Of a DNA stretch of 64,000 nt, positions 5,000 through 59,264 are shown one piece after another. Each line of letters begins with the position of its first letter. The first letter of the stretch is position 1. The DNA is from Octopus vulgaris (taxonomy: Eukaryota). The notes beneath the pieces were generated by a model that was not told the origin of the DNA, did not search any database, and saw only the letters and a program-made list of their open reading frames with translations. The position numbers were made by a program, and so were the translations under genes. The DNA lies in the NCBI GenBank assembly GCA_951406725.2, contig OX597819.1, positions 40,114,001 through 40,178,000 of the forward strand, written 5' to 3'.

Positions 5000-5626
5000 C
5001 TTCAAGGAAAAAAGTAATAACAATTCAGAATAAATTTAAAAACTAAGAATACTTTTCAAAATTTATTTACAATCTATAATAATAAAAGCAAAAGTCTGTC
5101 TGTCTGGGACCCCTATATCTCAGTCTACATTTGATCTACATAGATATGTTATACCATTTTGGTATCAGGATTATCCTGGGATTGAAAATCTGCCCTTCAT
5201 TTGGTTCTTAAACATCCAGTGCTGAGATCTGATTTAAAAGCATTTGGGTTGCTATTTCTAGCAAGTAAAGCTTGGCTGATTCATGCCATCTTGGTTGGCG
5301 TTTGTCAGATGATGTCAGAGACCAAGTGGGAGATAAATGACATTTGCTTCATTAATTTTACAAGATAAGAACTTTGGCATAAATTGGCCAACAGTTGGAA
5401 TTCAACTTGGGACTGGAACAATAGAATGATTGCATTACAGAATTAATCCTCATCCATCCTTAATCACTGATCAAACACCACCAGGGCATATAGTCATTAT
5501 AGACATACAATAGTCATGTTATTTAGCTCTCTTTACTTTTGGGCCACAGGCCCAAATAGCCCACCACAGGAGATAGCTTAAAAGTTCACATGGAGATAGC
5601 TCAAAAGTCCACATGGAGATAGCTCG

Positions 5627-5660
<34 letters not shown>

Positions 5661-6019
5661 ATATACACACACACACACACACACGACAAGGCTTCTTTCA
5701 GTTTCTGTCTACCAAATCCTCTTACAAGGTTTTGGTTGGCCTGGGGCTATTATAGAAGACATTTTACCAAGGTTCCACATAGTGGGAGTGAACCCAAAAC
5801 TACACATCCACACTTGCACCTATAATGTGAAATTCCAGCAAAAATACTTAACCCATTAGCACCCATGGTCCTTTTTTAGGACCAGAAGGATAATCCATCA
5901 TATTTTTGCAACACCTTTATTTTTCTGGTATATCTTTAGTTAGTCATCAAGACTGGAGTATTTTTCAAATATTGTAATAAAAATTTTTTTATCAAAAATC
6001 AAAATAAGATCGAAATCAA

Positions 6020-6440
6020 AATGGAAATTGTAGTTGTGACCGATGTCAGTGCCACCTGACTGGCACATAACAAGCACCATTCAAGCATTGGTCAATGCAA
6101 GTGCCACCTGACTGGCCTCCCATGCCAGTGGCACGTAAAAAGCACCATCCAAATGTGGTAACTACCAGTCCCCCGCCGACTGGCTCTTGTACTGGTGGCA
6201 TGTAAAAAGCACCATCCGAACGTGGTTGACGCCAGTGCCGCCTGACTGGCTCCCATTCCAGTGGCACATAAAAAGCACCCACTACACTCTTGGTGCGGTT
6301 AGCATTAGGAAGAGCATCCAGCTGTAGAAACCTTGCCAGATCAGATTGGGGCCTGGTGCAGCCTACTGGCTTGCCAGTCCCCAGTCAAACCATCCAACCT
6401 ATGCAAGCATGGAAAACGGACGTTAAATGATGATGATGAT
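6020..6440 (+). mobile_element. RTE 3'-end copy
   Basis: Tandem AAAAGCACCATCCGAACGTGG units followed by the standard tail and (ATG)n. Confidence 0.85.
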
Positions 6441-6722
6441 TTAGTATCAGATAAAGTTATATAAAAAAAGATTTTTGGTAATAAATTAAATAAAAAAAAA
6501 ATTGGGCACTAGTGGGTTAATACATTAGTACCACAGTGTCTGGTGAAAGTACAACAAAAATGAACTACAAATGATTTACAAATCTATGTACAAAATTTGG
6601 TATTGTGTACAACTAAATTCAAACTTACAATGTCAGTTCAGTAGAAAAAGTAAAGCATATGGTGAATATAAAATTAAAATGAGTGAAGTGAGAGAATAGG
6701 TAGTTTAAATAAGAAAACTTAC

Positions 6723-6794
6723 TTTTATTTTTATATGTTGCCAAGTATATGTAGCGAAGTCCAAAGCTTGCACTTGGTTGGAAAATCGATCAAC
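6723..6794 (-). CDS. KLHDC3: KLHDC3 coding exon 4 (VDRFSNQVQALDFATYTWQHIKIK)
   Basis: TGCAG acceptor, GTAAGT donor, 72 nt, phase 0-0; fits the FSN..H.LD...TW segment expected between the flanking exons. Confidence 0.92.
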
Positions 6795-9538: not shown

Positions 9539-9654
9539 CGCCTCTTCATAACCTCCAAATATGTACATTTTATTATTTATGACACAAGCAGAGTGACCGT
9601 CTCTGGCACCAGGTTTTACGCCGTGAACTGTTGGACGTGACCATGTGAACATAT
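9539..9654 (-). CDS. KLHDC3: KLHDC3 coding exon 3 (NMFTWSRPTVHGVKPGARDGHSACVINNKMYIFGGYEEA)
   Basis: TTTAG acceptor, GTAAGT donor, 116 nt, phase 1-0; kelch motif PGARDGHSAC...MYIFGG. Confidence 0.95.
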
Positions 9655-10140
9655 CTAAAGTTGAAAAGACAATACAAAAGATATACAATCACATAATTAA
9701 TATGGTTCTTTGGAAATTTTACTGTAATACTTGACACATTTAATATCTCACACAACACATTTAGACAGAGATTTCTTCCAACAGAAACTCCTACATTTTA
9801 CCTCACCTCATATGACACATCTACAAACCACTAACCATGTTAAATTGACATATCCATAATATCCAACCTATATTATGTCGAACCCTTTAATTCTCAACAT
9901 TACCCATTCCTTCTTTCTTCTGGAATCCCTCCTACCCCTGTTTTTCCTAAGACCATAAACTGATCGTTGAGGATCAGTAAAAGCCATAGGTACAGTTACT
10001 TCCATGAAAGCAAAACATTATAAAAATAAAAAGTTATACTCTCTTGGGCTTCATTCTAAATTAGATGCCACACACAATGCAGACATATGCATCCTTCCAC
10101 ATACAATTTAGAGATAATTACAAAATCCAACAGATTAGAT

Positions 10141-10624
10141 CAGTATTTACCAATATTTTTACTCTTGGAGAACCTTTGAAATACTTTCCATGTCTCAAGG
10201 AACCAACACATGAAATTTACAGTGCATACTCCAAATCTTCATTAATCTCATACTTTCTCTTTCATAAAGTTAAACTTCATAGTGATTTAACAAACCATAT
10301 TGTCTTTCAAAGGTTTGGCAAATACTAAATCTATCAGACACCACAAAGAAATTCAAAATTCAAAATAATTAAGACCATGTTTAAACCAAACTCCCTTACA
10401 ATTTCCTATCAAGGGGTTATTTTTCCCAAATTACCAACAGGTGCCAGGATTTCAAATATGCTCTGTGTGTATAATAAAATTAACAATATAAAATTAAACA
10501 CAAAAATTATTCAAAAATGCATTTGCATATAATCTGCTTTTTTTTTACAACTATTTCTTGTGGAACCCCTAGCAATCTCTGGCAGAACATTAAAGTTCTG
10601 GGGAACCTCAAATAGAAAATACTG
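10141..10624. mobile_element. Old hAT (Charlie-like) non-autonomous element
   Basis: Ends CAGTATTTACCAA...TAGAAAATACTG; near-perfect 8-bp TSD GATTAGAT/GATTAGAC; subterminal GGAACCC motifs. Confidence 0.7.
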
Positions 10625-10754
10625 GATTAGACTTAACTCCAATATAATGTTTAAATATTCATTACAATATTCATACATCAGTAGTTAATAAAACTTTGAA
10701 AAATGTAACTAAAATATAATAAAATCATAAACAATGGGCCACAAAAGTACTCAC

Positions 10755-10928
10755 TTGTATCAAAACAATAAAGGATATTACATGCTCCATCTTTATCATT
10801 GCGGCCACCCCAAATGAAAACACAGTCCCCAAGAGCAACAGCTGTGTGTCCGTAACGTTGGTAGGGAACATGCTTGTACTGGCTATCACCAGGCGTCGGA
10901 ACAGGTAGCCTCTTCCAACGTAAGGAGA
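10755..10928 (-). CDS. KLHDC3: KLHDC3 coding exon 2 (VSLRWKRLPVPTPGDSQYKHVPYQRYGHTAVALGDCVFIWGGRNDKDGACNILYCFDT)
   Basis: Manual minus-strand translation (not in the ORF track). TTTTCAG acceptor, GTGAGT donor, 174 nt, phase 1-1; kelch motif PYQRYGH...IWGGRND. Confidence 0.95.
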
Positions 10929-11010
10929 CTGAAAATAGAAAAGAACATAGCTTTTACCTCCAACTTCTCTCTCTTCTCAACTTTTTGCATGTGTGTGTGT
11001 GTCTGTTAGG

Positions 11011-18349: not shown

Positions 18350-18515
18350 CAACATCGAGGACATGTACGTCCATAGGCCGTGTTGTCTCATAGTCTTCTC
18401 CGGAACAATAACCACCAAAAGAAAAGATTCTCTCCCAGAAACTGTTACAAATTGCTACTGCAGCATGGTTGACCCGTTTGGGACCACCTTCAAGATGTAT
18501 TGTCCACCTCTGCAT
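18350..18515 (-). CDS. KLHDC3: KLHDC3 orthologue, coding exon 1 (MQRWTIHLEGGPKRVNHAAVA...FSFGGYCSGEDYETTRPMDVHVLDV)
   Basis: Translation closely resembles the KLHDC3 N-terminus as I recall it (MLRWTVHLEGGPRRVNHAAVAVGHRVYSFGGYCSGEDYE). GTAAGT donor follows 18350; 166 nt, phase 1. An upstream acceptor (TTTTCTGCAG) at 18577-18576 indicates additional 5' exon(s). Confidence 0.95.
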
Positions 18516-18892
18516 GCTGCAATATCGTTCAGACCAATAAAAGTATGGAGAAAACCGCTTTAGGTAGCGAGGTTGCTGCAGAAAAGATAAAAAATGAAGT
18601 AAATGTATAATGTGATAATTAATTTTACACGATAGACTCCGTTATTATGCATTATATATCCCCTTCGACGACAATCTAGTCAACGGAAAGTGAAAACAAA
18701 AAGGGAGATAACTCTAAAGGACACGGCTTTAAATAATGCTAAGCATTTTTCTTTTCTTTTAAAACAGTTTGCAACTATTTCACACAGAAACATTATTAAT
18801 AATTTAAATACAATTTATCGCTTTTATACCACTTTTACGTGATGTGGAAGTATACAACAGTGTTACTCATCTTCAGTAACCAGGCAACTTAC

Positions 18893-19750
18893 CTAATTCT
18901 GCTTAATATCGGCTTCAAAGGTAATAGAAGCAAATATGTTATAATCACATCCTTCGCTTATATAAAAACAACTTTTGAAGATTATTGTTAATAAATAATA
19001 TATTACTTATCTAAATACCTCTATCGACATTTTAAAGAGCTAGCTCCCTTATAAATCTCTCTTTAGTCAAACAACAATGAATTCATGCCCTCATGACTGA
19101 CATGAGAAGCTTCTGGCAAAGCTGTTCAACTATTGACTCTATTTGTCATTAATCATCTGAATAATAAAAAAAATATTAGAAAAAAGAAAGACACCTTCAT
19201 ATGATATCGTTCCATAGCAGCGTCTGTTGACTAGACATTCTCTAATCCTCGCTATCAAAGCTTCAAGGCGTTTATTTCTATCACAAACCCAATTTTTTTT
19301 TCTGAATAATTTTTAAAACTAATAGTAATCCCTCACAATCATACGCATGCAACCACGCTATCTAGCTTTCCTTCACTTTGCACGAATATTATCCACAACC
19401 ATAACATCAAAACGCGGCCATCGAGAGCAAATAAACCCACAACGCAATATCGGTGGTTAGCTGAGAAGTTCGCTTTCAGGGTCGAACCCGTTTGGGTTAT
19501 AAACATTTGGTTAACGGAAACTGGTCAAGCACATCGTGTACGTACGTACATACAATTGTGTGTATAAGTGAATGTATGCATGCATGCATGTGTATTTATA
19601 TCTCTCGTTGATAGCTATCGGTTTAAGATATAAACAATGTCGAGGAAACCGAAAAACTTGTAGTTTTCAGATGCTCTATCTTGCTATACTTTTTTCCGTA
19701 CCGAGTTGTGAACACTCGCCTGCCAGTCCAGCTGTGAACTAGTGACTGGC
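18893..19750 (-). promoter_or_regulatory. Putative proximal promoter / alternative non-coding first exon of KLHDC3
   Basis: Consensus donor TAG/GTAAGT at 18893/18892, about 315 nt upstream of the acceptor at 18576. CpG-retaining unique sequence around 18.6-19.8 kb. Confidence 0.45.
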
Positions 19751-22284
19751 CCATTGGAAACCTGTAATCAACGACACTATTTACTGATTGCGATATAAAA
19801 TAAATAAATAACATGAAAAATGACTAAACCTCCTCGTATTTCTTCCAATTTTTGATGATGTTTCATATAATCTCTATAATTTTCATATAACCAAGGCTGT
19901 GTGATAAAGGTTTGACTAACCTTTGACAGAACAAAAAGTACTTCAACCTTAAATAGTCATCAGTCAACACAAGACGGATATTCTTTCCACTCATATGCTA
20001 TTTGGACAGTAGACTTTCACCCCTCTACAAATATAATACATCTAATTGATGTCTTTAGTAAAGCCTACACTTTTTTAAGCATTCTAGTTAGGAATCCAGT
20101 TTGAAGATACCTTTCTCTTTCCCTCTGTCTAACTAGTCTTGGAGGCATTATAAAGGGTCAAGGAACACTTCCCTCTTGCCTGAATAATCAAAAACTTAAC
20201 TACAATACACTTACCCTTGTATGTTCACAATTGGGATCAAAATTTTTTTTTTTTTAAATAGATTAGCCACCTTTAAGTAAGCCTTCACTTGCAAACCCAC
20301 AATAATAAGCATTTGAAATGAGGTGGGGTGAAATCAAGAGGTTTTACAAACCCTTTTGTTGTGAGATTGAACCAATTGATGCTGAGTTTAAACATTTGTC
20401 GATCAGGGTTGGCGGGTAACAAAAAAAAAAAACGAGTTCAAAGAAGGAATTCCAGTCCTGAGAAGGAATCCCTTAGGAAATGTTTAGTGAATGATCACCA
20501 AGAAATGATACAAATAGTGACAGTTGTTGGCTCACAAGAGTGTCTTTGTGGAGCTTGGTGGAAGGAATATCCAGATATCTTGTTCAGAAAATCTAAAAGC
20601 CATTCTAAGTCTGTGAGTGAGTGACTAAAATGTATTGTTGAATGAAACATTACCTATCATTTGAATGACCATTGAAATCAGTCTAGAACAATGATGTTTA
20701 CACATCACTGTTCTAAACTACCATGGCCTACATCATTCAAGGTTTCACCCATTGTTGACTACATGAAAACAAAAATACTTGAACACAAATTCAATTCAAA
20801 CAACAAAAAAACATCACTAACCATGTCTGAAACATAAAAATATTGAATTAAGTAAAGAAAAAATACAAACTATAACATCCCACTGTTGCCCATTAACAAT
20901 TGTGACCCATTTCTCTACCACGTAGCCCATTTTGTACACACAGCCCATTTTAGTTTACAGTGTGCGCATGTATGTCACTGCAGCACCATTTCTGATATGA
21001 TTAGTACTCCAATATGAGCTCCATTTGAGCTACAAGGAGTCATAAATGGATAAGGGCTGAAGCAGTTTCTAGCTCTAAAACTGAGGTCTAATGATTGCAA
21101 TGCAGTTACAACAATGAGAGATTCCATGAAATTGTTGGACAATAGCACTTACAATAATTCTGAGGGTTTTAGTTGGGTGTTCTTCATGTAAGGTACAAGA
21201 CTAATTCCTTAATATGTAAGGCAAATGTATTTGTGTTGCTCCAAAGAGACATGGCAGATTTATCTGTTTTAAGTAATACTCAGTTCTTGTTCATGAATCT
21301 GATGTAAACAGAGCATAAAATTGCATGTGGATGATATGTATGCAGAAGGTAAAGGAAGAACAACAATGTAATCAAGCTGACTATTAGTCCCAGATGATTA
21401 ACAGAAGACTGATGAAGATGTGAAGTGTTGGCTTCATCAAGAAGTGACTGAACATAATGATGGCGAGGTAAAGATTGAGTTTGGAAAAAGAAGTTAAGGG
21501 TGTTTGAAGTTGATGTGCTTGTTAGAAATATGGGCAGTAGATGGTACTAACCATTGCAAACAATTAAGAATGGCTAACAATTACAATGATTTCTGCTCTT
21601 CTAATTTTGTTATCTGTATAAGAATTCCACTTATTGCACTACATCTACTCTTCACATCACTCCAATTCTTGTTATTGACCTATACTCTGTACAAAACACT
21701 TTTCATAATTCTTCTTTTCCAAATTGTATCTCAATGGAACTTTTATCCTTATCATTTTATTTGAATCACGAACTTGCAAGAATTTAAACTAAATGTTAAA
21801 TTCCCCCTCGGTCTACAAGGATCTAAAAAGACTACGGTTCCTCTCCAGACAACTACTAAAAGAAAATAGAAACCTTATGAAAAATAATGCCTATCAAACT
21901 ATACTATATGGTATACATTACAGAAATAGAATATTTTTCCCACCCTATACAGAGAAAGAATAAAATAACAAATACATTTAAGAAAAGCAGTTGTTTTAGT
22001 TCACTGACGAAAAAAACCACATAGCTCCGGCAAGACAATAACAACATGCCAGACACCAGGAAACCACTCTCAAAGTTTCATCTATTAGAATAATTTAAAT
22101 ATTTGCATCATCTACACAGCAATGACTAGTCATGAAATAATTTCAAACTATATTTCAGCATTAAAAATTAAGGAAACATATCTTTAACTTAAACTAATTT
22201 AAAACATGTTTAAAGAGAAAAAAAATCTTTTATAAACCAATGAATATAATAAATTCCATTTATCTATTTTCTTCATTTAAATAG

Positions 22285-22402
22285 AAATTACTAATAAAAG
22301 CCATATTGAACCAAATATTTTTAAAATTGCTAATAAAAGCCATACTGAACCAAATATTTAAAAAATTACTAATAAAAGCCATATTGAACCAAATATTTTA
22401 AA
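22285..22402. repeat. Three-copy minisatellite, about 40-bp unit
   Basis: AAATT(A/G)CTAATAAAAGCCATA(T/C)TGAACCAAATATTT repeated three times. Confidence 0.9.
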
Positions 22403-23448
22403 CTCCAACAATAGCTAGAAACATGAGCAACAGAAAGTTGATTCATCATCAAAGGAAAGTTTAAAATGTTATCTACTGCCATTCAAACCATATTTAATCA
22501 TAAATTGTTGTCTTATCTCATTTCATTATACAACACAAATTTTATGTATTTCTTTTCTGTGGCTTAAAATTTGATGAACTCAAATCCTTTTATGTATAAT
22601 GGTCACATATGTCACACAAGATAGTATCAACTTATTTGTGAGTCTGCATACAATATGTTTATAGATTCATATTCTGCAATTAAATGATTGTGTATTTAAG
22701 AACAGCTAGATGGAGTTCATATTTGTATTATGAGTACTCTTCACTTCACATTGTGGCCAATTCTACCATTAGACTTTATCTAGGAAGAAATATATATGAA
22801 GAAATATGTATTGCTTCTTGTATCATTATCAGCAACTTGATACCACTGGTTTCCATTGGCTACAGTTTTCTCTTCATCCATCCATGTGATATTAGACTCT
22901 CTCTTCAATTATGAATATTCTGTATCATATACACTCTCGGAGTGGTTGGCGTTAGGAAGGGCATCCAGCTGTAGAAACCCTGCCAAATCAGATTGGAGTC
23001 AAATCGTCCAACCCATGCTAGCATGGAAAGCAGACGTTAAATGATGATGATGATAATGATATACTTTTCAATCTTCCTCTCTTTTTCCTACTGGTGGTTT
23101 CCATTTAAAAGTTGTTTTAGAATGACTTTATTCTGGGAGCTGAGGTATGTGACCTTTTAGTTTTAATCTTCATTCTGATGATTTTGCTATGTGGACTTTT
23201 GTTGGCTCTCTTTAGAATGTTATCATTGGTTATGTGGTCTTTCCAGTATGTTTTTAAAATCCTTCCCAAGCATTTTTGGTAAAACACATCTAACTTTCTG
23301 TTAATTTTTCACTGAGCTGTTTCCTGTCTTATTAATACAGAGAATTGTTGCTTCCTGTACCTCCGTATAATTTCTCAAATCATTACACACTGTTCAGTAA
23401 GTTTTCAATTGATAAGTAACTATTCTACTCTGTTCCTATACAAAACTC

Positions 23449-23874
23449 GGATCTTTTCGGTTTGAACGACAGTTTTTAACATAATTTCTAGGTAACTAAA
23501 AAATTTTAAACTTTGTATACTGGTAGAATGTGTTTATAAAACATATTTTTCTCTTGGCTTTATTGAGAAAATTCTATAGTTTGTAAGATATTTGTTGTTT
23601 TTTTTTCTTCAATTTCTGCAATTTCAACCAATCAGTGACGTCTATTGAGGTAAAAAACATTCTGTGCCGTATGAATATGTCCCTCATTTAAGAAACAGAT
23701 TGGGTTTATTTACATTTGTGAAGAAAAAAAATACCCTTCCCCCACCCCTAACCCTAACTATCCCTAACCCTAAAACAGGTTGAAATGCAATAGATCGATA
23801 CTAGGGTCATAATTATGGGTGACAATTTCATATGACACTGCTAGAAAAAACTGCCGTTCAAACCAAAAAGATCC
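23449..23874. mobile_element. MITE copy 2 of the same family, 8-bp TSD CAAAACTC
   Basis: TSD at 23441-23448 and 23875-23882; same TIRs and interior as 17808-18225. Confidence 0.92.
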
Positions 23875-25309
23875 CAAAACTCTTCAAAACTCATGTACAT
23901 ACACCTTAAAAGAAATAGAACTTACTTCAATTCAAGTAATTTTCACACCATTATCATGCAACTTTTGTTTAAAATATAATTAATAAATTGATTCATTTTG
24001 TTTTAAATGTATTTCATTCAATCTATTTTAATTCTTAAATATACAGCTGTTCCTCCACAAGCATCAATAGTTGAAGACAAAATACAAACCAGCATGCTAA
24101 CACATTAAAGTACCCAACAACCTAATATAGCTACTGATTTCCTTTTATGACAATACTTTAATATTAGTTTCAAATTTTGTCACAAGGCCAGCAAGTTTGG
24201 GGGAGTGGGGTAAGTCAATTACATCAACCCTAGTACTCAACCGGTACCTATTTTATCGACCCTGAAAGGATGAAAGGCAGTGTTGACATTGGTGAAATTT
24301 GAACTCAGAACACAAAAATGGAAGAAATGCTGTTAAGCATTTTACTTGGCATGCTAATGATTCTGCCAACTCGCCGCCTTACAATATCTTAATATCAACT
24401 GGTGAAATCATATGTCCAAGGATAACATTTTAAAAAATAAGGGAGCAGCCTGAGCAAAATAACAAGGTTTCACACAATCCATCATATTGGACTTAATGAG
24501 TCTATAGGTAGACTGATAGTCTAAACTAATTAATAACAGATTAGATAATTCACAGAGCTGTTTTAAATTTTAGCCTATGTTTAATTACATGCAATCAATA
24601 AAATTACACAGGAAACATGTAGCAAAACAAAACTAAAATGTTTTTTTCTTTTATCTGTCATTTTTTTTTCTTTTGTCATAATGAAATTGAAGATTGAAAT
24701 ACAACTCAAAATTAATTTTTCTATGGAAAAAGATATACTGTTGATATATATTTTATCAAACCCATTTCAGATTAAAGAACATAATTGTGAGTTTCAACTC
24801 AGTACGTTGAAGCCTATGTTAAATACTATACTAAAAGCTATTAAAGCTTATAATGTAATAAAAATAAGCAGACAGGTCAAACCAATAATGTTTCTGATTG
24901 GTAGCATTAAATATTAATGCTGTTCATATTCTATGCAAGGTGAAATAATGTGGAATGCTGTTTTTAGTGAAATACAAAAGTAATATGAAATAAAAGCATT
25001 AAATTAATATTACTGATGCATCACAAAGGCCCAGGTTTTTCCATAGAGGAATTAACAAAAGTGAGAAGTAAAATGGCTTCAGCAATGAAAATGTCACTAT
25101 CTGATTCAATAGGACTTTACTTCTTATAATATAGGGCTAACAAGCAATTGCATTAATATACATAATATACATCATCATTATCAACATTTTTATGACCACT
25201 TTCTATGCTGGTATTGGTTGAACTGGTTGTTACAGTCTAAGTCATCTGCTATTGAGAGCTGCCTCTTTCCAGTGAAACGACTTCAGAAATACTTAACTTG
25301 GAGCAAGCC

Positions 25310-25660
25310 CCAATGCCTAAGCATTTGTCAGCTTGGAAAAGTTTTTGACAGGGTTCCACACTCAGTAATCTAGTGGTCACTACTAAGGAAACTAAGAGTA
25401 GAGGTATAGCTTGTGAGGGCTATAAAAAAAAATCATACATAGAGGTGAAGTTAGCAATGAATTTAGTGTGCAGGTAGGGCTCACTGAAGCTCAGTCCACA
25501 GTTCTCTTCTGTTTTTCATAGTCTTTCAGGCCACACTGGAGGAGCTTAAGAGCAGCTGTCCATAGAAACTCATATATATTTATAAAAAATCTCTTAGTTA
25601 TATCTGTTGAAGATTTAGAGAATTTCCAGACATAGAAACAAAACCCAGAATCAAAAGACT
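25310..25660 (+). mobile_element. RTE reverse transcriptase fragment
   Basis: GCATTTGTCAGCTTGGAAAAG...GACAGGGTTCCACACTCAGTAATC is a degenerate AFVDLEKAFDRVPHSVI motif. Confidence 0.7.
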
Positions 25661-26279
25661 TCAAACTATTTTAAATCATAAAAAGGAAAAAATCAGTTCA
25701 ATTTTCCTTGGTGGTTTCATAGTTGTTTTAGATATTGAATATTTACATCTAATTGATAAATTATACTTCATTTCATCAGAGAGAACAAGAGACAGAGTGT
25801 ACCATCATCATCATTTCTACAGTTGGATGCTCTTCCTCTCACCAACCCTGAACTGTTTCCAAGCAAGGTAATTTCTCAAAGCTGAGGAGGGCTCAATGGT
25901 GAGTGGCAAGGAAGAGCAAGTCTGTAGTGAATGTAACTTTACAGAAGTCATACTGGTGTTCATTAAAGAAACAGTGATGGACTGAAGATGTTGGAGACTA
26001 TGCTTGTTAATGACTGTTTCCATCAGAATTGAGATGTTGGGAGTAAGATCAATAGACTGATTATGTGGTCAGAGGGTTTGCTTTTCTTTAGAATAGAATA
26101 CAATGTAGTAAAACCATTCACAAACAGCTCAGTGAAAATCTTATTATAAACCCCATGTTTACTTGAGTTTCAATTTCTTGATAATAGGATTTAGAAAATT
26201 GAAAGAATAGAATGCTGCCAATAGCCATGACTAAAAGCACTAAATCTATTGCCACAGCAAACTATCCTGTAGACATCTG

Positions 26280-26319
<40 letters not shown>

Positions 26320-26379
26320 GTTTAAACTAGCTGAAATGGCTGTTGAGAATTACAAGAGAGATAAAGTTGGAGTATTGAG

Positions 26380-26650
26380 GTTTGAATAATGTTGGTGATC
26401 TTCGAGAGTTAGATGAACATTGATTAAGGGTACAAGGCACTTTTCAAAAATCTTTGCAATTAGACTCAGAAGAGACAATGATTTGAATGATGCTGGGTCA
26501 GTTTCAACCTTACCAAGCTTCAGAGTAGGGATGATGGTTGAGGTTTTCCAGATTGCTAAGTCTTGAAGTTTTTGAAGGAGATATTGAAGATAATTTTTAG
26601 ATTTTATGATGACAAACTTACCAAGCGAGTTCAGATAAAATATAACCAAA
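26380..26650 (-). mobile_element. Old non-LTR retrotransposon RT fragment (I/Jockey-like)
   Basis: WKTSTIIPTLKLGK...DPASFKSLSLLSLIAKIFEK...DHQH matches the RT domain 0/1 pattern WK.A.I.PI.KPGK...SYRPISLL...K.FEK...QH. Confidence 0.7.
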
Positions 26651-27471
26651 CTGTCTGAACACTTTGCTTCAGTTTCTGTTTCTTATTGCCAATTCTACCT
26701 TCAATTTTCCTTAATTTATTGTTTGTCATCTAAAACATGTCTATTCCCTGTTGAATTGTTTTATCAAATTTGTTCACAAACATTTGGATTAGAAAAAGAT
26801 TTGTTGCAAAATTTGACAGCAATATTCAGCTGCTACTTGCTTTGGTTATTCAATGGTTTCACTTGTTTTCCTTTAAAAGCTATTCATGTAATTAACCACA
26901 TTTTATGACCTCTTCAAGATGACACTTTACAAAAAAAGTATTACAAAACAGCAAGCAGTGTATTTAAAAAGCAGTGTATAAAAATTCAGTTCTGACAGCA
27001 GTTGGAATTTATTTTATCTCAGACTCATAGGACTTGGAGCTTCCTAGGAAAGCTACGTAGACACTTTGCTTTTCAATTTTTATGTCACTAAAACACCAAC
27101 TCCTGATGAGTAGCTCTGACTCTTCAGCTGTGGAGATGATTTTACAGTGTGGGGAAACTTGACTCAAATTTAATCACTAACAGAACAAATAACCTGCTAG
27201 ATCTGATTGACTTTATCCATCCCTTAAATTATTCAATTCTATTGTCAAGTTTCTTGCCATACACCATCTCTAGAGCAACAACTCAAGATACTAGCTATAT
27301 CAGACACAACGCTCATTTTCTCACCATGTTTTAAAAGAATGACATGTCTTACTCAACAAAGAAATATCATTTGTAAATGATAGGCTGGTGGTATTTGAGA
27401 ATAGGGCAAATTCACATTTAGAGCAACCTACAAAGAATGTGGTTAATTCTTGATTACGCAAAGCCGCTTGT

Positions 27472-27777
27472 GGAGGTGCATGGCCTAGTGGTTAGAGCAG
27501 AGGACTCGCGGTCGAGGGATTGCAGGTCCGACTCTCAGACCGGGCGATGTGTGTATTTATGATTGAAACACCTAAGCTCCACACGGCTCCGGCAGAAGGT
27601 AATGGTGAACTTCTGCTGACTGTTTCGCTACAACTTTCTCTCACTCTTTCCTCCTGCATTTTGCAGCTCACCTATGACGGACCGGCGTCCCGTCCAGGTG
27701 GGGAACCTATACGCCAAAGAAACCGGGAAACCGGCCCTTATGAGCCAGGCATGGCTCGAGAAGGAACAAACAACAAA
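27472..27777 (+). mobile_element. tRNA(Arg)-like SINE family B, tail variant 1
   Basis: Head GGAGGTGCATGGCCTAGTGGTTAGAGCAGAGGACTCGCGGTCG...; body ACACCTAAGCTCCAC...CAACTTTCTCTCACTCTTTC; (AAC)n-like end. Confidence 0.85.
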
Positions 27778-30310
27778 GTTGCTTACATGCCCACTCATGT
27801 TGAAGTGCAGCATACAAAAAAAATTCAATCCTTTGTATCACCACAGGTTACCACAAAATGGTAGCCAAAAATAATTTCAAAGTTGAGACAAAAAATGCTG
27901 AGAGTACAAGCCATACTCATACCATCTGGTTTCATAATACCTGGTCCAATACTACAAAATTTGTCACTCATCACCAAAATCTTCAAATTTGGACATTCAA
28001 AAAACTTATGCAATTTTGAAATTTGTCAACAACGGTAAAACCAGAAATGGCATTAAAAGAAACTTCATTGTTTGGTAGTTGAGGATGTGATTTAAGGCTA
28101 CCAGACTACTAAGCAGCAACCCACCACCAGACTAACTCATGACCAATAAAGAAAAAAGAATGTTAACCACAGAAAATAACATGCACACAGGTACAAGTGC
28201 ACTCAGTTTTGTTGTCCTTGCTAAATTATTATTGCAGTTGAATAGATCTAGAAATCACCATTGCTGTGGCATCTCCCATATCTTACATGTCTTCCACAGT
28301 ACAGCTAATCTTATTAATTTAAATATACTGGACCTAAGGAACAAGCTCAGGAAAATAAAACAGCCTTGAATTGAATTGCAATATAGAATTCCTCTTGGAA
28401 CAATCACAACAAATATTAAAATTTTGTTGATCTAAAAGCATTATAAAAAATTACCAAGCATAAAAACACAAACAATCTACAAAGTCAGCTATTTTTTAAA
28501 AACATATTGTCAAGTATTTACCTTGTAATTATTGATTTTTATCATGACACAGCCTCCCCACCACTGCCACCATCACCATCCTTGAAGAACATGCTCTCAT
28601 ATATCAAAACTGAATATATGCAGAGCAGACAGTTTAAAACCCACTTTATCTGTTTACAAAGACAAGTAAAGCAGGTATTAAATTGTTAGACACACCATCT
28701 GTTTTTACACAACAATATAACTGTCTCTGGTATGGTAAGAATTTTTTTTAGTTGGTCTTTCAACATTGTCATAATCATTATGTTCAATTATAGCAGCAGA
28801 CACATATTCCTCTACTAATTCTTGTTACTTAACATTATATTAAAAGTAAGGCAGAATCCCCGAGAGGTTGATATGCTGGACCAAAGCTGCTAAATAACAA
28901 GTTCAAACCTTACAACTACAGTCATTGTATGTGTTCTTGATAAATCAGAACACTACTTATCACAGTTTGCCTGACTGGCAAAAACTTCACTCCTTCACAC
29001 TTCACAGTTGAGGAAATAATAAAGGAAAGTCAACCAACTATAAACAGTTACTCCAATATTTTGTAAATGTCTAAATTTCCAAAAGCCTTTCCTCTATGAT
29101 ATCATGGGAAAATAGATGTAAAACAATGAATAAAATTCTTTGGAAGAGGAAGCAATTGATGTAGCAGATAACATCTCTACCTTCCCAATTACTTTTATAG
29201 TTAGTCTGCTTTAAGAATTCAAGATCTTTCAAATTATGTATAAAATGCAGCTTTTTTTTTTTTCCTAGGCCAAACACAAACATAAGTTACCATCAACCAT
29301 TAATTGGTACTACTTTTCATTAATCATGTCTCCTTTTGAAGCACCTGTTAAACCAAATGCATTTGCATCTCATTTTTCCTCACCTTATGTTTTTACTGCT
29401 TGACTACTTTCTCACCTCATCTATACTTAATCTTTCAGAGGAATTCCACAACATCTACAACACAACAGGTACAGAAATGTCCATTGTTGCCAAGAGGTAA
29501 CAGTCATTTAGTACAACCTACTATAACGAGAGTTATATCTCTCCATTCCCTCTTCACGGTCAAATGGCTAGACTAATGGTCACAACGTTTTTCAGGATTA
29601 CGAAGGAGGTAATCAGGAAAGTTTTTAGCAGAAAAAATGTGAGAAAGTATGATTATTTAGTGGATACTGAGTTTTGTATTAACAAATCACCTTTGACTTT
29701 TTTTGCTTAAATTATGATGATGGGGATTAACTCTGGATTTTTCCCCCGTATAGTTGATGAGATTTGAGATTTATGATACTATCCCTTTATTTCCAATCGT
29801 AGATGGGCAGATTTGTTATCTTACTATAATGGGCATTATGCTTGTCCATCTCTTTGTTCCCTCTTCACAGCCAGACAGCTGGACCAATGGTTACGATATT
29901 TTGGGGGATTACAAAGATGGTCATCAGGAAGGTTTTCAGTATCAAAGAATCAGAAAGTATGATTATTTCGTGGGTATTGATTTTTGAATTGATAAACCAC
30001 CTTTGCATTTTTATCAAAAATTCACCGACCACAAGTACCTCTGGATTTTCATATAGTTTGTGGTCCCATCATAGATATGAAGGGGGTCGCAAGATGGTTA
30101 ATAGCAAAAATAAAATGGAAAAAGTGTGTCAGTATAGAGTGTGAGTGATTATTTAGTGGTTATTGAAGTGTGTCAGTCTTGAGCAGGATTCGAAATGGCT
30201 AATCGAAGCAGCTGTCGTTTACATTTCAGTTTTGACAATCAAAATAACCCATGGTACCAGAACATCCAGCCATTATTCTTATAGAACAGTGAGAGGTAAG
30301 TCTTAGTTTG

Positions 30311-30511
30311 ATTTTTTGCAAACCTAAAGATTCCACTTGCACATTCACAGCAAACAAGGCATATGGCCAGACTTTAGGTCATGTATTTTTACCCACTCTG
30401 ATGTTTACACACAGCCAGTCATATGTCACTATGAGTAGAGCAACAGACTCCAGAAATTTGAAAATTAGTATCGACCAAACAGAAAATATCATCAACAAAG
30501 AAGTTTTGTAA
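30311..30511 (+). mobile_element. Helitron Rep/Hel (Pif1-like helicase) C-terminal remnant
   Basis: TANKAYGQTLGHVFLPTLMFTHSQSYVTMSRATDSRNLKI...TENIINKEVL* matches the Helitron consensus TINKSQGQTL..V....VFSHGQLYVALSR....LKI...T.NIVYKEVL*. Confidence 0.85.
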
Positions 30512-31454
30512 TCATATTGATATTATCAAAAGGAATAGGATTCATAATTCAAATAACGAACTTTGTGAAATTTGAATGTATACGAGTATAAACAAGTGTA
30601 AAATAGTGTAAACAACTAAAATAAAAGTATATCTAAATAACATTTTTTTCTTAATACTTTTAATGTAGTGGTCGAAGGAAACCCTGGATTTCATTAAGAG
30701 TGGTCCGCATAACCATTCATGATATAGAGCTTGGGAGCCTATTTCAGTTTGGGAGTGAATCGTCATTACATGTCCCTTAGTCGCAAACACATGTCATTTA
30801 GCTGCAACAGAATGCTGTATCACCAACAATAATGTGATTTCTTTAAGACATCACCCAGTAATCTATCATGTCTATTTACACATTTCTCAATACATACTGC
30901 TGTTATGAATTGCCTCTCTCATTTTATGGGTAGATTTGCTAATTAATCTAATGGCATGAAGAAGATGCTGTATAGATTTTTAATACTGGATTTCTATTTC
31001 TATCAAGAGTGAAAAAGAGAAATCAAGTTTTGCTAATGAGATGAACTCTCTATTTAAAAGCTAACAAAATACACTTCAGTAATACAATACTGTATGTAGG
31101 TTCTGCTACATATACTTCTCATAATACCTACTTACAGCTGGACTATTGAAAGAGAAGCAATTGTCAATGATATAACAGCCTGTCTGCAACAAACTATAAC
31201 CCACTAACCATGGCACTCTAATATGTGAGATATGAAAACATGGTACAAAATAAATTTTACTTTTGTTATACAGTGGCTAGAATTCTAACAGATTTTTATG
31301 ACTGACAGTATGACAGGTTAGTTCAAGAATTCCTCTCTACTGTACAATAAAAGACATATCATATTTGGCTGCTATTAATAAAGATAATAAAATCAAGCTG
31401 GGACATATAAATATTTTTTTTTTTTTAGTGAAGTAAAAGTAAAGAAAAAAATAC

Positions 31455-31493
31455 CTCATCTGCCTTTCCAGCGAGCTTCTATTAAATCTGGTC
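31455..31493 (-). other. Putative 39-nt microexon (KLHDC3 5' leader / uORF middle exon)
   Basis: Strong acceptor CTGTTTCTTTTTCAG and donor GAG/GTATTT. Only the phase 2-2 frame is open (TRFNRSSLERQM). Confidence 0.5.
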
Positions 31494-33210
31494 CTGAAAA
31501 AGAAACAGATATATCACTTAGTACACTAATTAACAATACTGACTATTTTATATTAACCACCAAAGCGTTGCAGGAGTACCTTATTAGAAATTAACTTTAT
31601 TTGACTTGAATACTTGAATAACAGAAAGTAAATCTAAAGATAAATGTAAAAATCAACCATTCATTTTTTTTTAAGTGATATGATGCAGAATATAAATATG
31701 ATATAAAACTCATAATTTTCCAAATGAAATTTGTTCACCTACTAATTTAAAATGTCGCACTGTAACCCAAATAACAGAAGAAACCCATTAAGGAAATAGG
31801 CATGGCAGCTAAAACCAGCTCAAGGTGGCTACAGTTGACAAAAGGTCACAGGCGAAACCCTTCTACAGGTGAAGTTTAATTCAATCATCACTGCCCAATC
31901 AAGTGAATCATACAGGCTAAGGTATGAAATGTTTGTGACCCTGAGATACCTGCTGATGGTATAGTAGGGTTTCCAATATTCTGATGGATTCAGAGGTTCT
32001 GCATGTGGGAAACCATCTCTGGTGTTTTATTTCACCTTAGAGAATGCAAATCATGAAACTGAATATATGTATGCGATATAGATCTGGATTAAATGAACTT
32101 GACTCATTCTTCTAAACTAGAAGGACTATCTATCTGCCCTACAATTTGGCAGCCATTAAAAGAAACAAATTAGAAAACCATGCCAAATCAGACTGGAGTC
32201 TGGTGCAGCCTTCCAGCATCCCAGCCTGGTCAAACTGTCCAATCCATGCCAGCATAGACAATGGATATTAAATGATGATGATGATGGTACAACAGGCTCC
32301 TTTCAGTCTCTGTCTACCAAATCTACAAATCTACTCACAAGGCTCTGGTTGGCCAGAGGCTATATAGTAGAAGACATTTGCCCAAGGTGCCATGCAGTAG
32401 CACCTTGAGAAAGTGGTTGGGAAGCAAGCTTCTAACCATACAGCCATGCTTGTGCCTACAAATATATCACACACAGCCTTCTCAATAAAAAATAAGTGAT
32501 TCATTCCTCTTAAACCTTTCTAGCAGGTCTTCTAAGCAGCAATCCTATGTATCTAACTGAACAGCTATAACTGCTAACACAACAAATGCTTTATTACATC
32601 AAATTAATAACTGAAATTAAGTTGCGTTTTTATTACATATTTGCATTTCATCCTCCACTGTTATTCAGTTAAAAATTTAATCAACCAAACAATAACTTTA
32701 ACAACTAAATCAAGCAAAATGTTTCATACAAATTAAATATCATATATGGTTTGAATTTTTCTGAAGATGTAGGAATTAAACTGTTAATAATAATAAAGCA
32801 TCTCCTTTTTTTAGATTAATGAAATAAACCTACGTTTGTCATTTCTCACACAACAATTTCAAACTCTCTAATAAATCAAATCAAAACTACCAGTACACCA
32901 GTATGAGACTTTCAGTTGAGCTTTCTGAGTATGAAATTCTTTTAAAGTGAAGAGCAATTAACTAAAACAATGAATATTGAAACCTTGTCAACAGACTTTC
33001 TTAAACAAAACAGATTTAAGTTGTTTATATCAAACTAGACCAGTGATAGTAAACCTATGACATGTATGTCAGAAGCAAGTTATTGTTGGTGTTTAAGTGA
33101 AATACAATGTGTGCTTTGAATGAAAAAATCTCCCCGTAATAATATAATAATAGATGTTGTGATGGACAGATCAGATGGAGATCAGATTCTCTTTTTTATA
33201 AGATAAAGCT

Positions 33211-33619
33211 TTACTCTTTTACTTGTTTCAGTCATTTGACTGTGGCCATGCTGGAGCACCACCTATAGACAAGCAAATCAACCCCAGGACTTATTCTTTG
33301 TAAGCCTAGTACTTATTCTATCGGTCTCTTTTGCTGAACTGCTAAGTTACGGGGATGTAAACACACCAGCATCGGTTGTCAAGCGATGTTGGGAGGACAA
33401 ACACAGACACACAAACATATACACACACATACATATATATATATATACATATATACGACGGGCTTCTTTCAGTTTCCGTCTACCAAATCCACTCACAAGG
33501 CTTTGGTTGGCCCAAGGCTATAGTAGAAGACACTTGCCCAAGGTGCCATGCAGTGGGACTGAACCCGGAACCATGTGGTCAGTAAGCAAGCTACTTACCA
33601 CACAGCCACTTCTACGCCT
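33211..33619 (-). mobile_element. SINE family A, full length
   Basis: Reverse complement of the 111-556 architecture, well preserved. Confidence 0.88.
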
Positions 33620-34403
33620 ATATCTATAAACATTTATCAAAAACTAAAATACAAGTTTACTATCTATATCATTGTCCACATCTTGCTTTTACATGTTTGC
33701 ATGAGTTGGACAAAGTTTATTGAGGCAGATTTCCTACAGTTGGATACCTTTCCTGTTGCCAATCCTCACTTGTTTCCAAGTAAGGAAACGTTTTCCACAG
33801 TGTGAGACAGATTTTCACAGAATACTGGAAACTAATGACAAAGTATGACAGTAGCATTCATTTACAATTACCATGTGATGTCAAGACAAGGACACACACA
33901 CACATATATATATATATATGATGGGCTTCTTTCAGTTGCCATCTACCAAATCCACTCACAAGGCTTTGATTGACCCAGGTCTATAGTAAAAGACATTTGC
34001 CCAAGGTACCACGCAGTAAGACTGAACTTGAAACCGTATTGTTGGGAAGTAAACTTCTTAACCACACAACCATGTCTGCACAGTTGTGTGTATATATAAG
34101 TCCTATAATTAGAGAAATTAGATATTTCAGCATATTTTAGTCTAGCTCAGTGATGATGAATCTTATTCAGGAAAAAAATTTCAGAATAATTCAATTTGTG
34201 CTATCATGGAAAAATAGAGATAAATCATTCAATCTTCAACTTCAAATCTGAATAAAAAATTTGCTGTTTAGGTGATTGGGACATGTCCAATCATAGATAT
34301 TCTTCTACAGAGAATCTTACCACAGAAATTCCCTAACTTCATCTTCCTTAAAAAGTTGAGGTAAAACTGAACCCAAAGTTTGAATGAAGAACCCTACCCT
34401 GAT

Positions 34404-34435
<32 letters not shown>

Positions 34436-37095
34436 TCAAGTTAGAGAGCAAAGAAGTTTCACTCAAATCTTTCTAGAATTTCGTTGCAAGCAAAAGAATG
34501 GTATTCAAAAAAAAATAATATGTTATTAACCACTTAAAGCAAACACAGAAAGCCAAGTTGGTACATTTTATCTTTAACTTGTTTTAGTCATTAGACTGTG
34601 ATTAAATTGGTGTACTGCCTTGAAGGGTTTTAGCTGAACAAATTGACATCAGGACTTATCTTTTAAAGCCTGGTACTTAGTCTATCGATCACTTTTGCTG
34701 AACTGCAACTAAATTACAGGGATTTAAGCACAGTAACACCAGTTGTCAAGCAATGGGTGGGGACAGACACAAAGACACACACATGCATAGGCCTCACAGA
34801 GGCTAAGTGGATGGATTCCTTTCGAGTGCTGGGTTTCACAGAGGCAATGACCTTTGGCATTATGCTGTGCTTTAGAAGAAGACCCATCAAGCCAAGTAAA
34901 ATCACAGAAGTGGCAGATACCAGTGTCATGCAAACTGGCACCTGTGCCGGCAGCACGTAAAAGCACCCGGAGTGATTGGCGTTAAGAAGGGTATCCAGTC
35001 ATAAAAAAACCGTGCCAAATCAGACTGGAGTCTGGTGCAGCCTTCCAACGTGCCAGCCCAGTCAAACTGTCCAGCTCATGACAGCATAGACAATGGACGT
35101 TATGATGATACAACGGGCTTCTTCCAATTTTTGTCTACCAAATCTACAAATCTACTCATAAGGCTTTAGTTGGCCAGAGACTATGTAGCAGAAGACATTT
35201 GCCCAAGGTACCATGCAGTGGCACTTTGGGCAAGTGGTTGGGAAGCAAGCTTCTAACCATACAGCCATGCCTGCACCTAAAAAATGTTTTAAATTTGTAT
35301 TTTTCTTTTATATTAGATTGATCAAGAAGACGAGACTGCTCGTGAGCTTTCATGGACTCTCAGTGATTGGTAAGATTGATGAGGTTAATGTTCCTCTTGA
35401 CCAGTTATAAGATGACAGATGAAAAAAAAAAAGGTGAGGGAATTGCAGAGAAATGGTATTTGGAAGAAGAAAGGACTAGACAAAATGGCTTAGGTGATGA
35501 GAGGAGGTGAGTGACTCAAGATTATCTGAGTGGAGGTGAACAAGTGTAGTCAGATCCAAGGAGCAAAAATAGAAAGGACAGAGTAAGGAGACGTGCTTAT
35601 GGGTCAGAGGTTAGAGAATGCTAAGAAGTAACTTCAAGCAAAACAGTCAGATGGCTGTCTTCATGCAGCCAATGTTGGTTGTGTTGTATAACAGTAGCAC
35701 TGTCACAGATGTGGACACTATTTGAGCTTTCTGTGGAAGCTTGTAGTTATGAGGGATTGAAGTATTTATTGGCACTGAAAAGGAAAACCAGTATTTATGA
35801 TGCAATTTTTGCTAAGTTAAGAATATATGGTCACCAGGAGAGATCCTTAGTGAAGCTTGGCATTTGTTGTGACATTCAGGGCTCTCACTACATGTTGTTA
35901 ATGTTTAGGGGAAATATAGGATGTAAGTGAACATTTTAAAAGTTATTTCACTGATTTAATTATTCAATTGTAAGGACTTAAATGTATCAGTTTAATTTAG
36001 TCTTCCATCAGAAATTCAGAGTTTAATGGCCTCACAAATGAAACTTAAAAGAATTAAAAAAAAAAAAATTAATGTTTTTTTAAAGAAATAAAAATGTCAA
36101 CTAACAATACAAATCACCCAAAGTGAAAAACATGAGTTATCTGACATTTTTAACTGGTACTACGTCACAAAATAAAGTTAGCTGTATCACGTAAAAGATT
36201 ATATATTAATCAGATTGCTATAGAAACAAGTTCAGTAGGTTTTGGTCATACAAACATAACAAATGTTTGAAACTGAAATTTGAATATACAATGCATTCTT
36301 CAACAGCCTTATCAGAGGCAGCAAAATTAGAAAGAAGAAAAAAAAACTTTAAACAGTATATATGTACATATGCCAAGTAATAGTTAACTAGTCAGAATGT
36401 AACTCATTATTTTACTCCAAACATTTCAGAAAATAAATTTAGTGAAACACACTGAAGGTTACACAAAACCACAAATATAAATATCACATTATCAAATGTT
36501 CCTTTTAGTCAACACACTGTTGCTTTCCACCCGAGTACAGACATCAATACTCAGGTGTCAGAAGTACAAATTTAAACACTGCTAAAAATGTATCACACAA
36601 CCCCACCCCCAAAAAAAAAAAAATCATAAAATGAGCAAATTTATTTATTGAAATTAAACTAGACATGTTCTCTAACAATCTTACCACATCTATACTCCAT
36701 ATCTATTGTATCTTTTGGGCTAAAATTTTTGCAAGATGAATTTCCTCATAAGAAAGTTACACGGGTTTGAAAGATGTCATGGCTATTGCTTATGGTCTAC
36801 TTAGGCATGGAAAAACTCAGTATACCAAGGACAAAATTAGAAAGATCACTGATGAGAAATAAGTCATATAGTGTCAGCAGAAGGAATAAAGTCACACCAC
36901 TAAAAGTCACATCCATCAAAGATATGAAATCTCAGAAAAAGAAAGAAGTGAATTAGAAACGGTACATGGTATGATAAACTACTTGTTCCAGTTTTCTCCA
37001 GAATAGTTTCATGTTACTATTTTAATGAGACAGCTACTCCTTGTATACATGAGTGTATATCAGATTCATCTCATGATGAATAGTTTTCTTTTTAC

Positions 37096-37156
37096 CAAAA
37101 TCGACGATACACACACACTTTTTGGCAGTTCAAATATGCTTCGGGCATATTTCAAC
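37096..37156 (-). other. Putative 61-nt upstream exon (KLHDC3 5' leader; contains ATG of candidate uORF)
   Basis: Acceptor ACTTTCTTACAG and donor TTG/GTAAAA. Unique sequence retaining 3 CpGs in a CpG-poor region. ATG at 37148 with A at -3. Confidence 0.45.
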
Positions 37157-38378
37157 CTGTAAGAAAGTTATTCACTGTATTTTGTCATGGAGAAAATTTC
37201 TTGCTGTAGACTAATAGGTGTAAATACACCAAGTCAATACACAATGCCCACCATCCAGACCATTGGTTGGCTGCATACATTTCAGAGTAGGTAACCAGCA
37301 GCAGAAACCAGAAACACAGATGCTGCAAACTTTGTGCGTGCATGTGTGTATCTGTGTGTGTGTGTGTGTGTGTGTGTAAAGATCTCCCAACCACAATAAG
37401 TCTAAAGCCTACAATAATAAATTAGCTCATGCTCTCAAACCTCATAACCCAGGTCAAAGTTCAGCTCAATGCTTGCTGTTGTCTTGAAATCATGAAAAAA
37501 AAAAAACACTGGTTCAACACAGTCAAAATTCCTGATAGATCTGTATATAGATATAATGAGAAATTTGTTCTCAAAACTAATGAATTCTCCAATCTTAATA
37601 TCTTGTCCCAAAACAATAAATATTACTGAATCTTAAGTAGCTTATAATTATTTAATACAGAAACTAAACTTGACTGTGTGATTAATGAGCTATGTGGTTT
37701 CATGTTCAGTGGGAAAATGTCCTATACTATAGCCCCAGGCCAACAAAAAACCTTGAGTAAATTTGATAGATGGAAACTGAAAGGGTCCTGTCATATAGCA
37801 TCACCATCATCAACATCGTCTAACATCAGTTTTCCATGCTGGTATGAGTTGGATGATTTGACATGCAGCTGGCCAGCTGGGAGCTGTTCAGGCTCCAATT
37901 GTCTGTTGTGGCATGGTTTCTATGGCCAGATGCCCTTCCTAATGCCAACCACTTAACAGAATGTGCTGGGTGCTTTTTACATACCATTGGCAAGGGTGCA
38001 TTTATGCAGCACCAGCACCTGAAAGGTTAAGTCCGTATGTGTGGAAGACAGCAGTTTTACGTAGCTTGATGCATCTTATCAAGTACAGCAAATCACCACA
38101 TCTTCTGGACCCTTGTCATTTACTCAGTGAAGCCCAGCATCCAAAGATCCTTTTGCACTACTTCATCCCACATCTTCCACAGGTACCCTCCACATTTAGA
38201 GCTCAGCACTTCTTTACACAGGTGTCCTCATTCAATATTTTATAAATATGGGTGTTTAAAACTATGCTCTACAAAAAAAAATTACAAGTGTTGCTGTAAG
38301 ATCTTTTACTTGAAATGTAAGTAAGGCTTAGCAACAGGAAGGGAATTCAGCTGCAAAAAAAAAAAAGCCTCCAATAAT

Positions 38379-59233: not shown

Positions 59234-59264
<31 letters not shown>

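What the first reader, a model, noticed from the sequence alone, without database searches (positions are those of the whole stretch)
18560..37148. Candidate 35-aa microprotein/uORF split over three exons in the KLHDC3 leader (possible bicistronic transcript)
Seen: two small minus-strand segments with acceptor and donor sites (37156-37096 and 31493-31455) and the acceptor 60 nt upstream of the KLHDC3 ATG (exon starts 18575). Joining them gives one uninterrupted frame from the ATG at 37148 (A at -3) to TAA at 18562-18560: MPEAYLNCQKVCVYRRFW|TRFNRSSLERQMS|NLAT*. The stop lies 44 nt before the KLHDC3 ATG. The first exon ends in phase 2, and phase 2-2 is the only open frame of the 39-nt exon. Both exons retain CpGs in CpG-depleted surroundings. 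Established: KLHDC3 is a CUL2/ELOB-C substrate receptor for C-end degrons. Inference: a uORF kept across about 18 kb of introns could be a conserved translational control element or an unannotated microprotein co-expressed with the ligase receptor. No transcript evidence is available here, and phase agreement has roughly a 1-in-3 chance per junction.
Basis: partly seen in the sequence, partly recalled or inferred. Interest (0 to 1): 0.8.

Follow-up and report, generated by a model that had tools for sequence, protein, structure and literature searches.

The report
Ordinary KLHDC3 leader; microprotein mis-joined
In this octopus gene the small middle exon is really spliced onto KLHDC3, but the proposed first exon is a piece of a common repeat that the main transcript likely does not use, so the 35-residue microprotein likely does not exist and an ordinary, shorter upstream reading frame is predicted instead.

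Summary
The coordinates and the 35-codon frame are as described, but the three-exon model is mis-joined. The 39-nt exon (31493-31455) is real: it is spliced to the KLHDC3 start exon on the KLHDC3 contig in 4 of 4 runs from four studies. 'Exon 1' (37156-37096) lies largely in a high-copy interspersed repeat. Its ATG is a repeat feature, present in 30 of 37 aligned copies, and one unrelated copy encodes the same first seven residues. In all four contigs, 43 letters fit on the small-exon side of the joint; 'exon 1' would give 40. That fits an upstream exon ending TCAG, best matched by a strong donor at 59544 in a CpG-rich region. This first exon is inferred, not seen directly. It would give a 23-codon uORF ending at the same TAA, a length reached in 61-74% of shuffled leaders. 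Conservation and translation could not be tested. Verdict: an ordinary spliced 5' leader with short uORFs, with no evidence for a microprotein or bicistronic mRNA.

The parts
37096..37156 (-).
   Evidence: donor score -1.0, rank 339 of 2231; would give 40, not the 43 letters seen
37101..37330 (.). Copy of an unclassified high-copy repeat (unit about 330-345 bp, often in tandem or inverted clusters) with a short hairpin that holds the ATG
   Evidence: 1354 candidates, 41 other matches at 80-89%; extent, hairpin and clusters
31455..31493 (-). Real 39-nt 5' leader exon of KLHDC3, single copy; holds an ATG at 31459 in the uORF frame
   Evidence: joint 31455->18575 (CT..AC) in 4 of 4 runs; single match in G000
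18350..18575 (-). First coding exon of KLHDC3: 60 nt of leader, then ATG at 18515
   Evidence: contig pieces 18350-18575 with 0 other letters in 4 of 4 runs; 100% match to P0078 residues 1-55
18560..18562 (-). TAA that ends the uORF frame, 44 nt before the main ATG
59544..59912 (-). Inferred true first exon (3' end 59544, TCAG|GTAAGA; 5' ends would lie at about 59666-59912); 59500-59840 is single copy
   Evidence: inference from side=43 and contig lengths; donor ranking; single copy
59544..59560 (-). Start of the predicted 23-codon uORF (ATG 59560, G at -3, phase 2); further short uORFs at 59661 (1 codon) and 59595 (5 codons)
   Evidence: depends on the inferred exon
57750..61750 (.). CpG-rich region, likely the promoter; the minus-strand T>A skew seen at 28-56 kb vanishes here
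2924..10929 (-). Five further KLHDC3 coding exons (about 10929-10755, 9655-9539, 6845-6723, 5008-4786, 3008-2924); the gene ends about 9 kb left of the window
   Evidence: tblastn with P0078; donors

Best explanation
This is an ordinary spliced 5' leader of octopus KLHDC3: the 39-nt exon is spliced to the start exon, the likely first exon ends at 59544 rather than at 37096, and the proposed 35-aa peptide likely joins repeat sequence to real exons by chance. Shown: the 31455->18575 splice, the repeat origin of the 37148 ATG, and that the letters preceding the 39-nt exon in the main contigs do not match 'exon 1'. Inferred: transcription starts near 59.7-59.9 kb in the CpG-rich region, two introns (28 kb and 12.9 kb) are removed, and the leader of about 220-470 nt holds four to six upstream ATGs, among them a 23-codon uORF that ends 44 nt before the main ATG. 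Such uORFs would lower KLHDC3 output through leaky scanning and re-initiation, independent of peptide sequence (general knowledge of uORFs; untested here).
For:: joint 18575/31455, CT..AC, in 4 of 4 runs on the contig that carries exon 18350-18575; side=43 in all four, i.e. 39 nt plus 4 letters that match the acceptor's TCAG; the contigs run on 123-369 letters beyond the small exon. 'exon 1' extends the match by 1 letter, 59544 by 4 (mismatch penalty -2 or -3; 7 at -1); of 15 TCAG|G[TC] sites out to 84 kb, 59544 has the best donor score (7.4); the next two (54045, 38019) would extend by 5 and 6, and the other twelve score 1.7 or less; repeat; ATG in 30 of 37 aligned copies, A at -3 in 28 of 37, acceptor AG in 19 of 37; copy L007 encodes the same first seven residues; 32 of 253 comparable pseudo-exons have an in-phase open ATG; 608-744 of 1000 shuffled leaders hold a uORF of at least 23 codons. 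CpG-rich region and loss of strand skew near 58-62 kb; octopus gene bodies are methylated while promoters mostly are not (PMC9476566, passages).
Against: The joint 59544->31493 was not observed: it lay outside the stretch laid, and only one lay was allowed. The reading of 'side' is mine; if the 2 ambiguous letters are counted on the other side, the extension would be 6 (fitting 38019) or 2, though still not 1. The runs are only guessed to be RNA, contigs drop rare forms, and 297 further joints were not shown, so a minor isoform with 'exon 1' is not excluded. Only 5 of 37 repeat copies stay open for 17 codons as this one does, and its last 11 nt and donor lie outside the aligned repeat. 'Exon 1' has slightly more CpG than its surroundings (3.6% tail). 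The inferred first exon also ends in phase 2 with an ATG in fair context, the small exon's only open frame is that frame, and skipping it keeps the same stop: this is what a maintained uORF would look like. Splice scores use my own approximate weight matrices.
Confidence: 0.74

Rival explanations
1. One reading: the repeat piece at 37156-37096 has been exonized and supplies an ATG, giving a 35-aa uORF peptide in some tissues.
For: AG and GT are present and the frame is open; only 5 of 37 repeat copies are open this far; three identical-protein accessions in P0078 hint at more than one untranslated-region isoform in a related octopus (inference).
Against: The main contig in 4 of 4 runs has other letters before the 39-nt exon; weak donor, rank 339 of 2231; ATG and acceptor are common to the repeat; 32 of 253 comparable pseudo-exons exist in the same intron.
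Confidence: 0.06
2. The 39-nt exon is preceded by a different exon (ending at 54045, 38019 or beyond 84 kb), so the 23-codon uORF is not there in this form.
For: The 59544 joint was not seen directly; 54045 has a good donor score, 6.6; 'side' could be read differently.
Against: 54045 would extend the match by 5 and 38019 by 6; 54045 lies next to repeat sequence in CpG-poor DNA; 38019 lies in a high-copy repeat stretch with donor score 2.0; strand skew and CpG point to a start near 58-60 kb.
Confidence: 0.13
3. The corrected 23-codon uORF is a conserved-peptide uORF or microprotein that controls or accompanies KLHDC3 translation.
For: ATG with G at -3, phase-2 donor, a symmetric exon whose only open frame is this one, and the same stop if that exon is skipped.
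Against: Length is unremarkable (608-744 of 1000 shuffles); it is one of four to six upstream ATGs; it does not end in Gly, so it lacks the R..G end that KLHDC3 recognises (PMC8013793, passages); no KLHDC3 uORF appeared in the paper searches.
Confidence: 0.07

Closest known systems
Ordinary uORFs in spliced eukaryotic 5' leaders
   Same: Several short upstream ATG frames ending before the main start; 20-50% of eukaryotic mRNAs carry uORFs (abstract start of PMC6380273 in listing).
   Different: Nothing shown; the leader introns are long (12.9 kb seen, 28 kb inferred).
Conserved-peptide uORFs (CPuORFs; ESUCA set, PMC7530721)
   Same: A short frame upstream of a regulatory gene.
   Different: No conservation or Ka/Ks evidence; KLHDC3 is not named in that paper's main text, and its supplement could not be read.
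Bicistronic uORF-mORF genes such as MOCS2 (fly CG10238; PMC2276209)
   Same: Small frame ahead of a main frame on one mRNA.
   Different: Those small frames are conserved across distant eukaryotes (passages); here the proposed start is repeat sequence and no conservation is shown.
Pseudo-exons and exonized repeats in introns
   Same: 'Exon 1' takes its acceptor and ATG from a high-copy element.
   Different: Inclusion in mRNA was not shown; the element was not classified.
KLHDC3 (CRL2 substrate receptor for C-terminal R..G degrons)
   Same: Window exons match P0078, named kelch domain-containing protein 3 in Octopus records; kelch families.
   Different: None seen in the protein.

Membership tests
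CPuORF / microprotein (35-aa form) | All exons of the frame lie on one transcript | tested here: not met
   Second joint present in 4 of 4 runs; the letters before the 39-nt exon do not fit 'exon 1' in 4 of 4 main contigs. Minor isoforms not excluded.
CPuORF / microprotein (23-aa form) | All exons of the frame lie on one transcript | tested here: inconclusive
   Second joint seen; first joint inferred from side=43 and donor ranking.
CPuORF / microprotein | Homologous uORF upstream of the homologous main ORF in other taxa | not testable with these tools
   G000 has no relatives here; the 14 metagenome loci are distant animals (49-76% identity), mostly genomic, so their spliced leaders cannot be read.
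CPuORF / microprotein | Ka/Ks below 0.5 against controls (ESUCA criterion, PMC7530721 passage) | not testable with these tools
   No diverged cephalopod leader was available; the four runs show 0 other letters in 18350-18575.
CPuORF / microprotein | Translation (ribosome footprints or peptide) | not testable with these tools
   No ribosome-profiling data in reach; the paper search gave 2 unrelated papers.
Bicistronic transcript | Two separate proteins made from one mRNA | not testable with these tools
   Only the main protein is on record.
Exonized repeat | Segment derives from an interspersed repeat | tested here: met
Exonized repeat | Segment is spliced into mRNA | tested here: inconclusive
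   Not on the main contig in 4 of 4 runs; contigs drop rare forms and 297 joints were not shown.
KLHDC3 | Kelch-repeat protein whose best relatives are named KLHDC3 | tested here: met

The most novel reading that the evidence does not exclude
The 23-codon uORF from the exon ending at 59544 is a translated, cephalopod-conserved peptide uORF that sets KLHDC3 levels, and a repeat-derived exon at 37.1 kb gives it an alternative, longer N-terminus in a minor isoform.
Probability: 0.06. Interest if true: 0.45.

Novelty: new member of a known kind. Interest (0 to 1): 0.1.

Why it matters
As it stands it matters little: it corrects a gene model (a real 39-nt leader exon, a likely first exon 41 kb upstream of the start codon) and shows how a repeat can supply a convincing ATG and acceptor. 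If the corrected uORF proved conserved and translated, it would be a handle on translational control of a C-degron ubiquitin-ligase receptor in cephalopods.

Tried and rejected
Run search: no RNA holder listed on record; the runs used are guessed RNA, and that blank is no evidence. Cover over 'exon 1': the bin 36686-37300 shows 0, 1.69, 0.16 and 0 against 12.0, 9.7, 2.8 and 8.1 if the segment lay on the main contig; no 37096->31493 joint is among the 15 listed (297 not shown). A part without cover is not counted as evidence. Search for a called antisense protein from the inferred first exon, as a way to place it on RNA contigs: 0 of 64 candidates scored, uninformative. Metagenome relatives: 14 loci, none usable for the spliced leader. 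Retrocopy of the mRNA that might show the joints: each of three leader pieces has one match in G000. CRIPT proteins listed in the KLHDC3 cluster as a possible bicistronic partner: CRIPT lies about 35 Mb away on the same contig and has no match near the window; rejected. N-terminal extension of KLHDC3: the in-frame leader is open for 28 codons back to two stops in the small exon but has no ATG, CTG, GTG or TTG; rejected. Longer N-termini in Logan proteins (406-407 aa) cover only 11-12 codons before the start, downstream of where the uORF stop would lie, and say nothing on the peptide. Degron-based autoregulation: the peptide does not end in Gly; rejected. The spliced peptides were not searched against protein collections, so the absence of homologs is untested. 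Earlier notes: none.

Full report
Observation. The three segments, the ATG at 37148 with A at -3, the 35-codon frame and the TAA at 18562-18560, 44 nt before the ATG at 18515, are all in the sequence. Only one frame of the 39-nt exon is open. The downstream gene is KLHDC3: its exons match P0078, which public records name kelch domain-containing protein 3 from Octopus species, and it carries kelch families.

The middle exon is real. Contigs of four runs from four studies were laid on 18300-37300. In 4 of 4, one contig covers 18350-18575 with no other letters and joins 18575 to 31455 across 12,879 bases with CT..AC ends, a minus-strand GT..AG intron. The runs are only guessed to be RNA, but pieces that end at exon borders and skip an intron behave as spliced RNA. 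The exon is single copy.

The first exon is not the one proposed. A search of G000 with 37050-37220 gave 1354 candidates, of which 40 were scored; 41 matches besides the window itself lie at 80-89% identity and cover the acceptor, the ATG and the frame down to about 37107. I fetched 27 loci around these matches. Of 37 copies aligned across the site, 30 have the ATG, 28 have it with A at -3, 19 have the acceptor AG, 15 have both, and 5 stay open for at least 17 codons; copy L007 encodes the same first seven residues. The ATG sits in a short hairpin of the element. The element is about 330-345 bp, occurs more than once in 14 of 27 loci, and was not classified. The last 11 nt and the donor lie outside the aligned part; the donor scores -1.0 (rank 339 of 2231 GT sites) against 0.9-6.2 for six KLHDC3 coding donors. 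These scores use my own approximate matrices.

What the contigs join instead. In all four runs 43 letters fit on the small-exon side of the joint: 39 for the exon plus 4 that match the acceptor's TCAG. 'Exon 1' ends in TTTTG and would add 1. Among 15 TCAG|G[TC] sites from 31.5 to 84 kb, the one at 59544 has the best donor score (7.4) and differs at the fifth letter as required; 54045 and 38019 would add 5 and 6 letters, and the other twelve score 1.7 or less. The stretch 59500-59840 is single copy and lies in a CpG-rich region at about 57.7-61.7 kb, where the minus-strand T>A skew of 28-56 kb vanishes. In octopus, methylation is enriched on gene bodies and scant in promoters (PMC9476566; 12 of 21 passages seen), so CpG-poor DNA from 20 to 57 kb next to a CpG-rich block fits an intron next to a promoter. 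The contigs hold 123-369 letters beyond the small exon, which would put their 5' ends at 59666-59912; the longest would stop in the tandem repeat at 59847-60080. This joint is inferred. It lay outside the stretch laid, and my reading of 'side' could be off by the two ambiguous letters; no reading gives 'exon 1'.

The corrected leader. With 59544 as donor, the leader holds ATGs at 59661 (1 codon), 59595 (5 codons), 59560 (23 codons, G at -3, ending at the same TAA) and 31459 (6 codons, same frame), plus two more in the longest form. Skipping the small exon leaves a 10-codon frame with the same stop. That tidy phase is the best point for a maintained uORF, but the length is common: 608, 715 and 744 of 1000 dinucleotide shuffles of the three leader lengths hold a uORF of at least 23 codons, counting frames that overlap the coding region.

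Chance. Between 59543 and 31494, 253 AG..GT pairs of 30-200 nt have both sites at least as good as 'exon 1'; 32 of them (25 distinct donors, 'exon 1' included) have an ATG open in phase 2 for at least 10 codons, 19 for at least 17. A reader scanning by eye could have built many such peptides. The CpG argument is weak: 3 CpG in 'exon 1' (3.6% tail) and 1 in the small exon (19.8%).

How it likely works. Transcription likely starts near 59.7-59.9 kb; two leader introns are removed; scanning ribosomes meet four to six upstream ATGs, and KLHDC3 is made by leaky scanning and re-initiation, for which 44 nt after a short uORF is a usual spacing (general knowledge, untested here). The peptide does not end in Gly, so it lacks the C-terminal R..G degron that KLHDC3 recognises (PMC8013793; 12 of 17 passages seen), and feedback through its own degradation has no support.

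What could not be tested. Conservation, Ka/Ks and translation remain open, and the spliced peptides were not searched against protein collections. A minor isoform with 'exon 1' is not excluded, because contigs drop rare forms and 297 joints were not shown.

Literature. Searches for KLHDC3 with uORF (4 papers, 3 listed), KLHDC3 with bicistronic (5 papers, 4 listed), octopus with uORF and ribosome profiling (2) and octopus with SINE and exonization (8) gave no listing that describes a KLHDC3 uORF; of these only PMC8013793 was opened. PMC7530721 (12 of 17 passages) does not name KLHDC3 in its main text, but its supplement, which lists the genes, could not be read and may bear on this. PMC2276209 (5 of 5 passages) has no hit for kelch or for CG12081, a fly gene name that I recalled and that comes from no call. 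Other papers were seen as listings only.

Verdict. Observation partly confirmed; the 35-aa microprotein is most likely a mis-joined model; what remains is an ordinary spliced leader with short uORFs. Interest 0.1.

Noticed in passing
window 36040-36700: Single-copy, AT-rich intronic stretch covered by contigs in 4 of 4 runs. It may be the 3' end of an intronic or antisense transcript, or internal priming at A runs; polyadenylation-like hexamers lie on both strands. Strand unknown.
   Followed up: partly
window 19568-20835: Mostly single-copy stretch covered in 4 of 4 runs; a minus-strand A13 run at 20255 could prime pre-mRNA, and an acceptor-like site lies at 20826. Unexplained.
   Followed up: partly
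window 15000-19750: Second CpG-rich region (o/e about 0.6-1.5) around the KLHDC3 start exon, inside the gene body; possibly an alternative promoter, with a donor-like site near 18893.
   Followed up: no
window 31426 (minus strand): A13 run 29 nt after the small exon's donor; may explain the extra contig cover in that bin.
   Followed up: partly
window 1690-1797 (+): Full-length U6 snRNA match (93 bits) inside a KLHDC3 intron on the opposite strand; gene or pseudogene not determined.
   Followed up: partly
window 54363-54701 (+) and 46082-46306 (+): Reverse-transcriptase fragment (RVT_1, E 1.7e-10) and PHD-finger fragment (E 3.7e-6), likely decayed LINE pieces.
   Followed up: partly
window 30293-30511 (+): Frame that looks like a Helitron/PIF1 helicase remnant (recalled resemblance); no Pfam match.
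   Followed up: partly
window 59847-60080: 28-bp-period tandem repeat at the likely transcription start region.
   Followed up: no
P0079, P0080, P0082, P0084; L028-L030: CRIPT proteins are filed in the same cluster as cephalopod KLHDC3, apparently a clustering fault; CRIPT lies about 35 Mb away.
   Followed up: yes
P0001, P0086, P0088, P0091: A 395-aa KLHDC3 type (unnamed Logan records) is called with 11-12 extra N-terminal residues that faintly resemble the in-frame leader here; likely a gene-caller start choice.
   Followed up: partly
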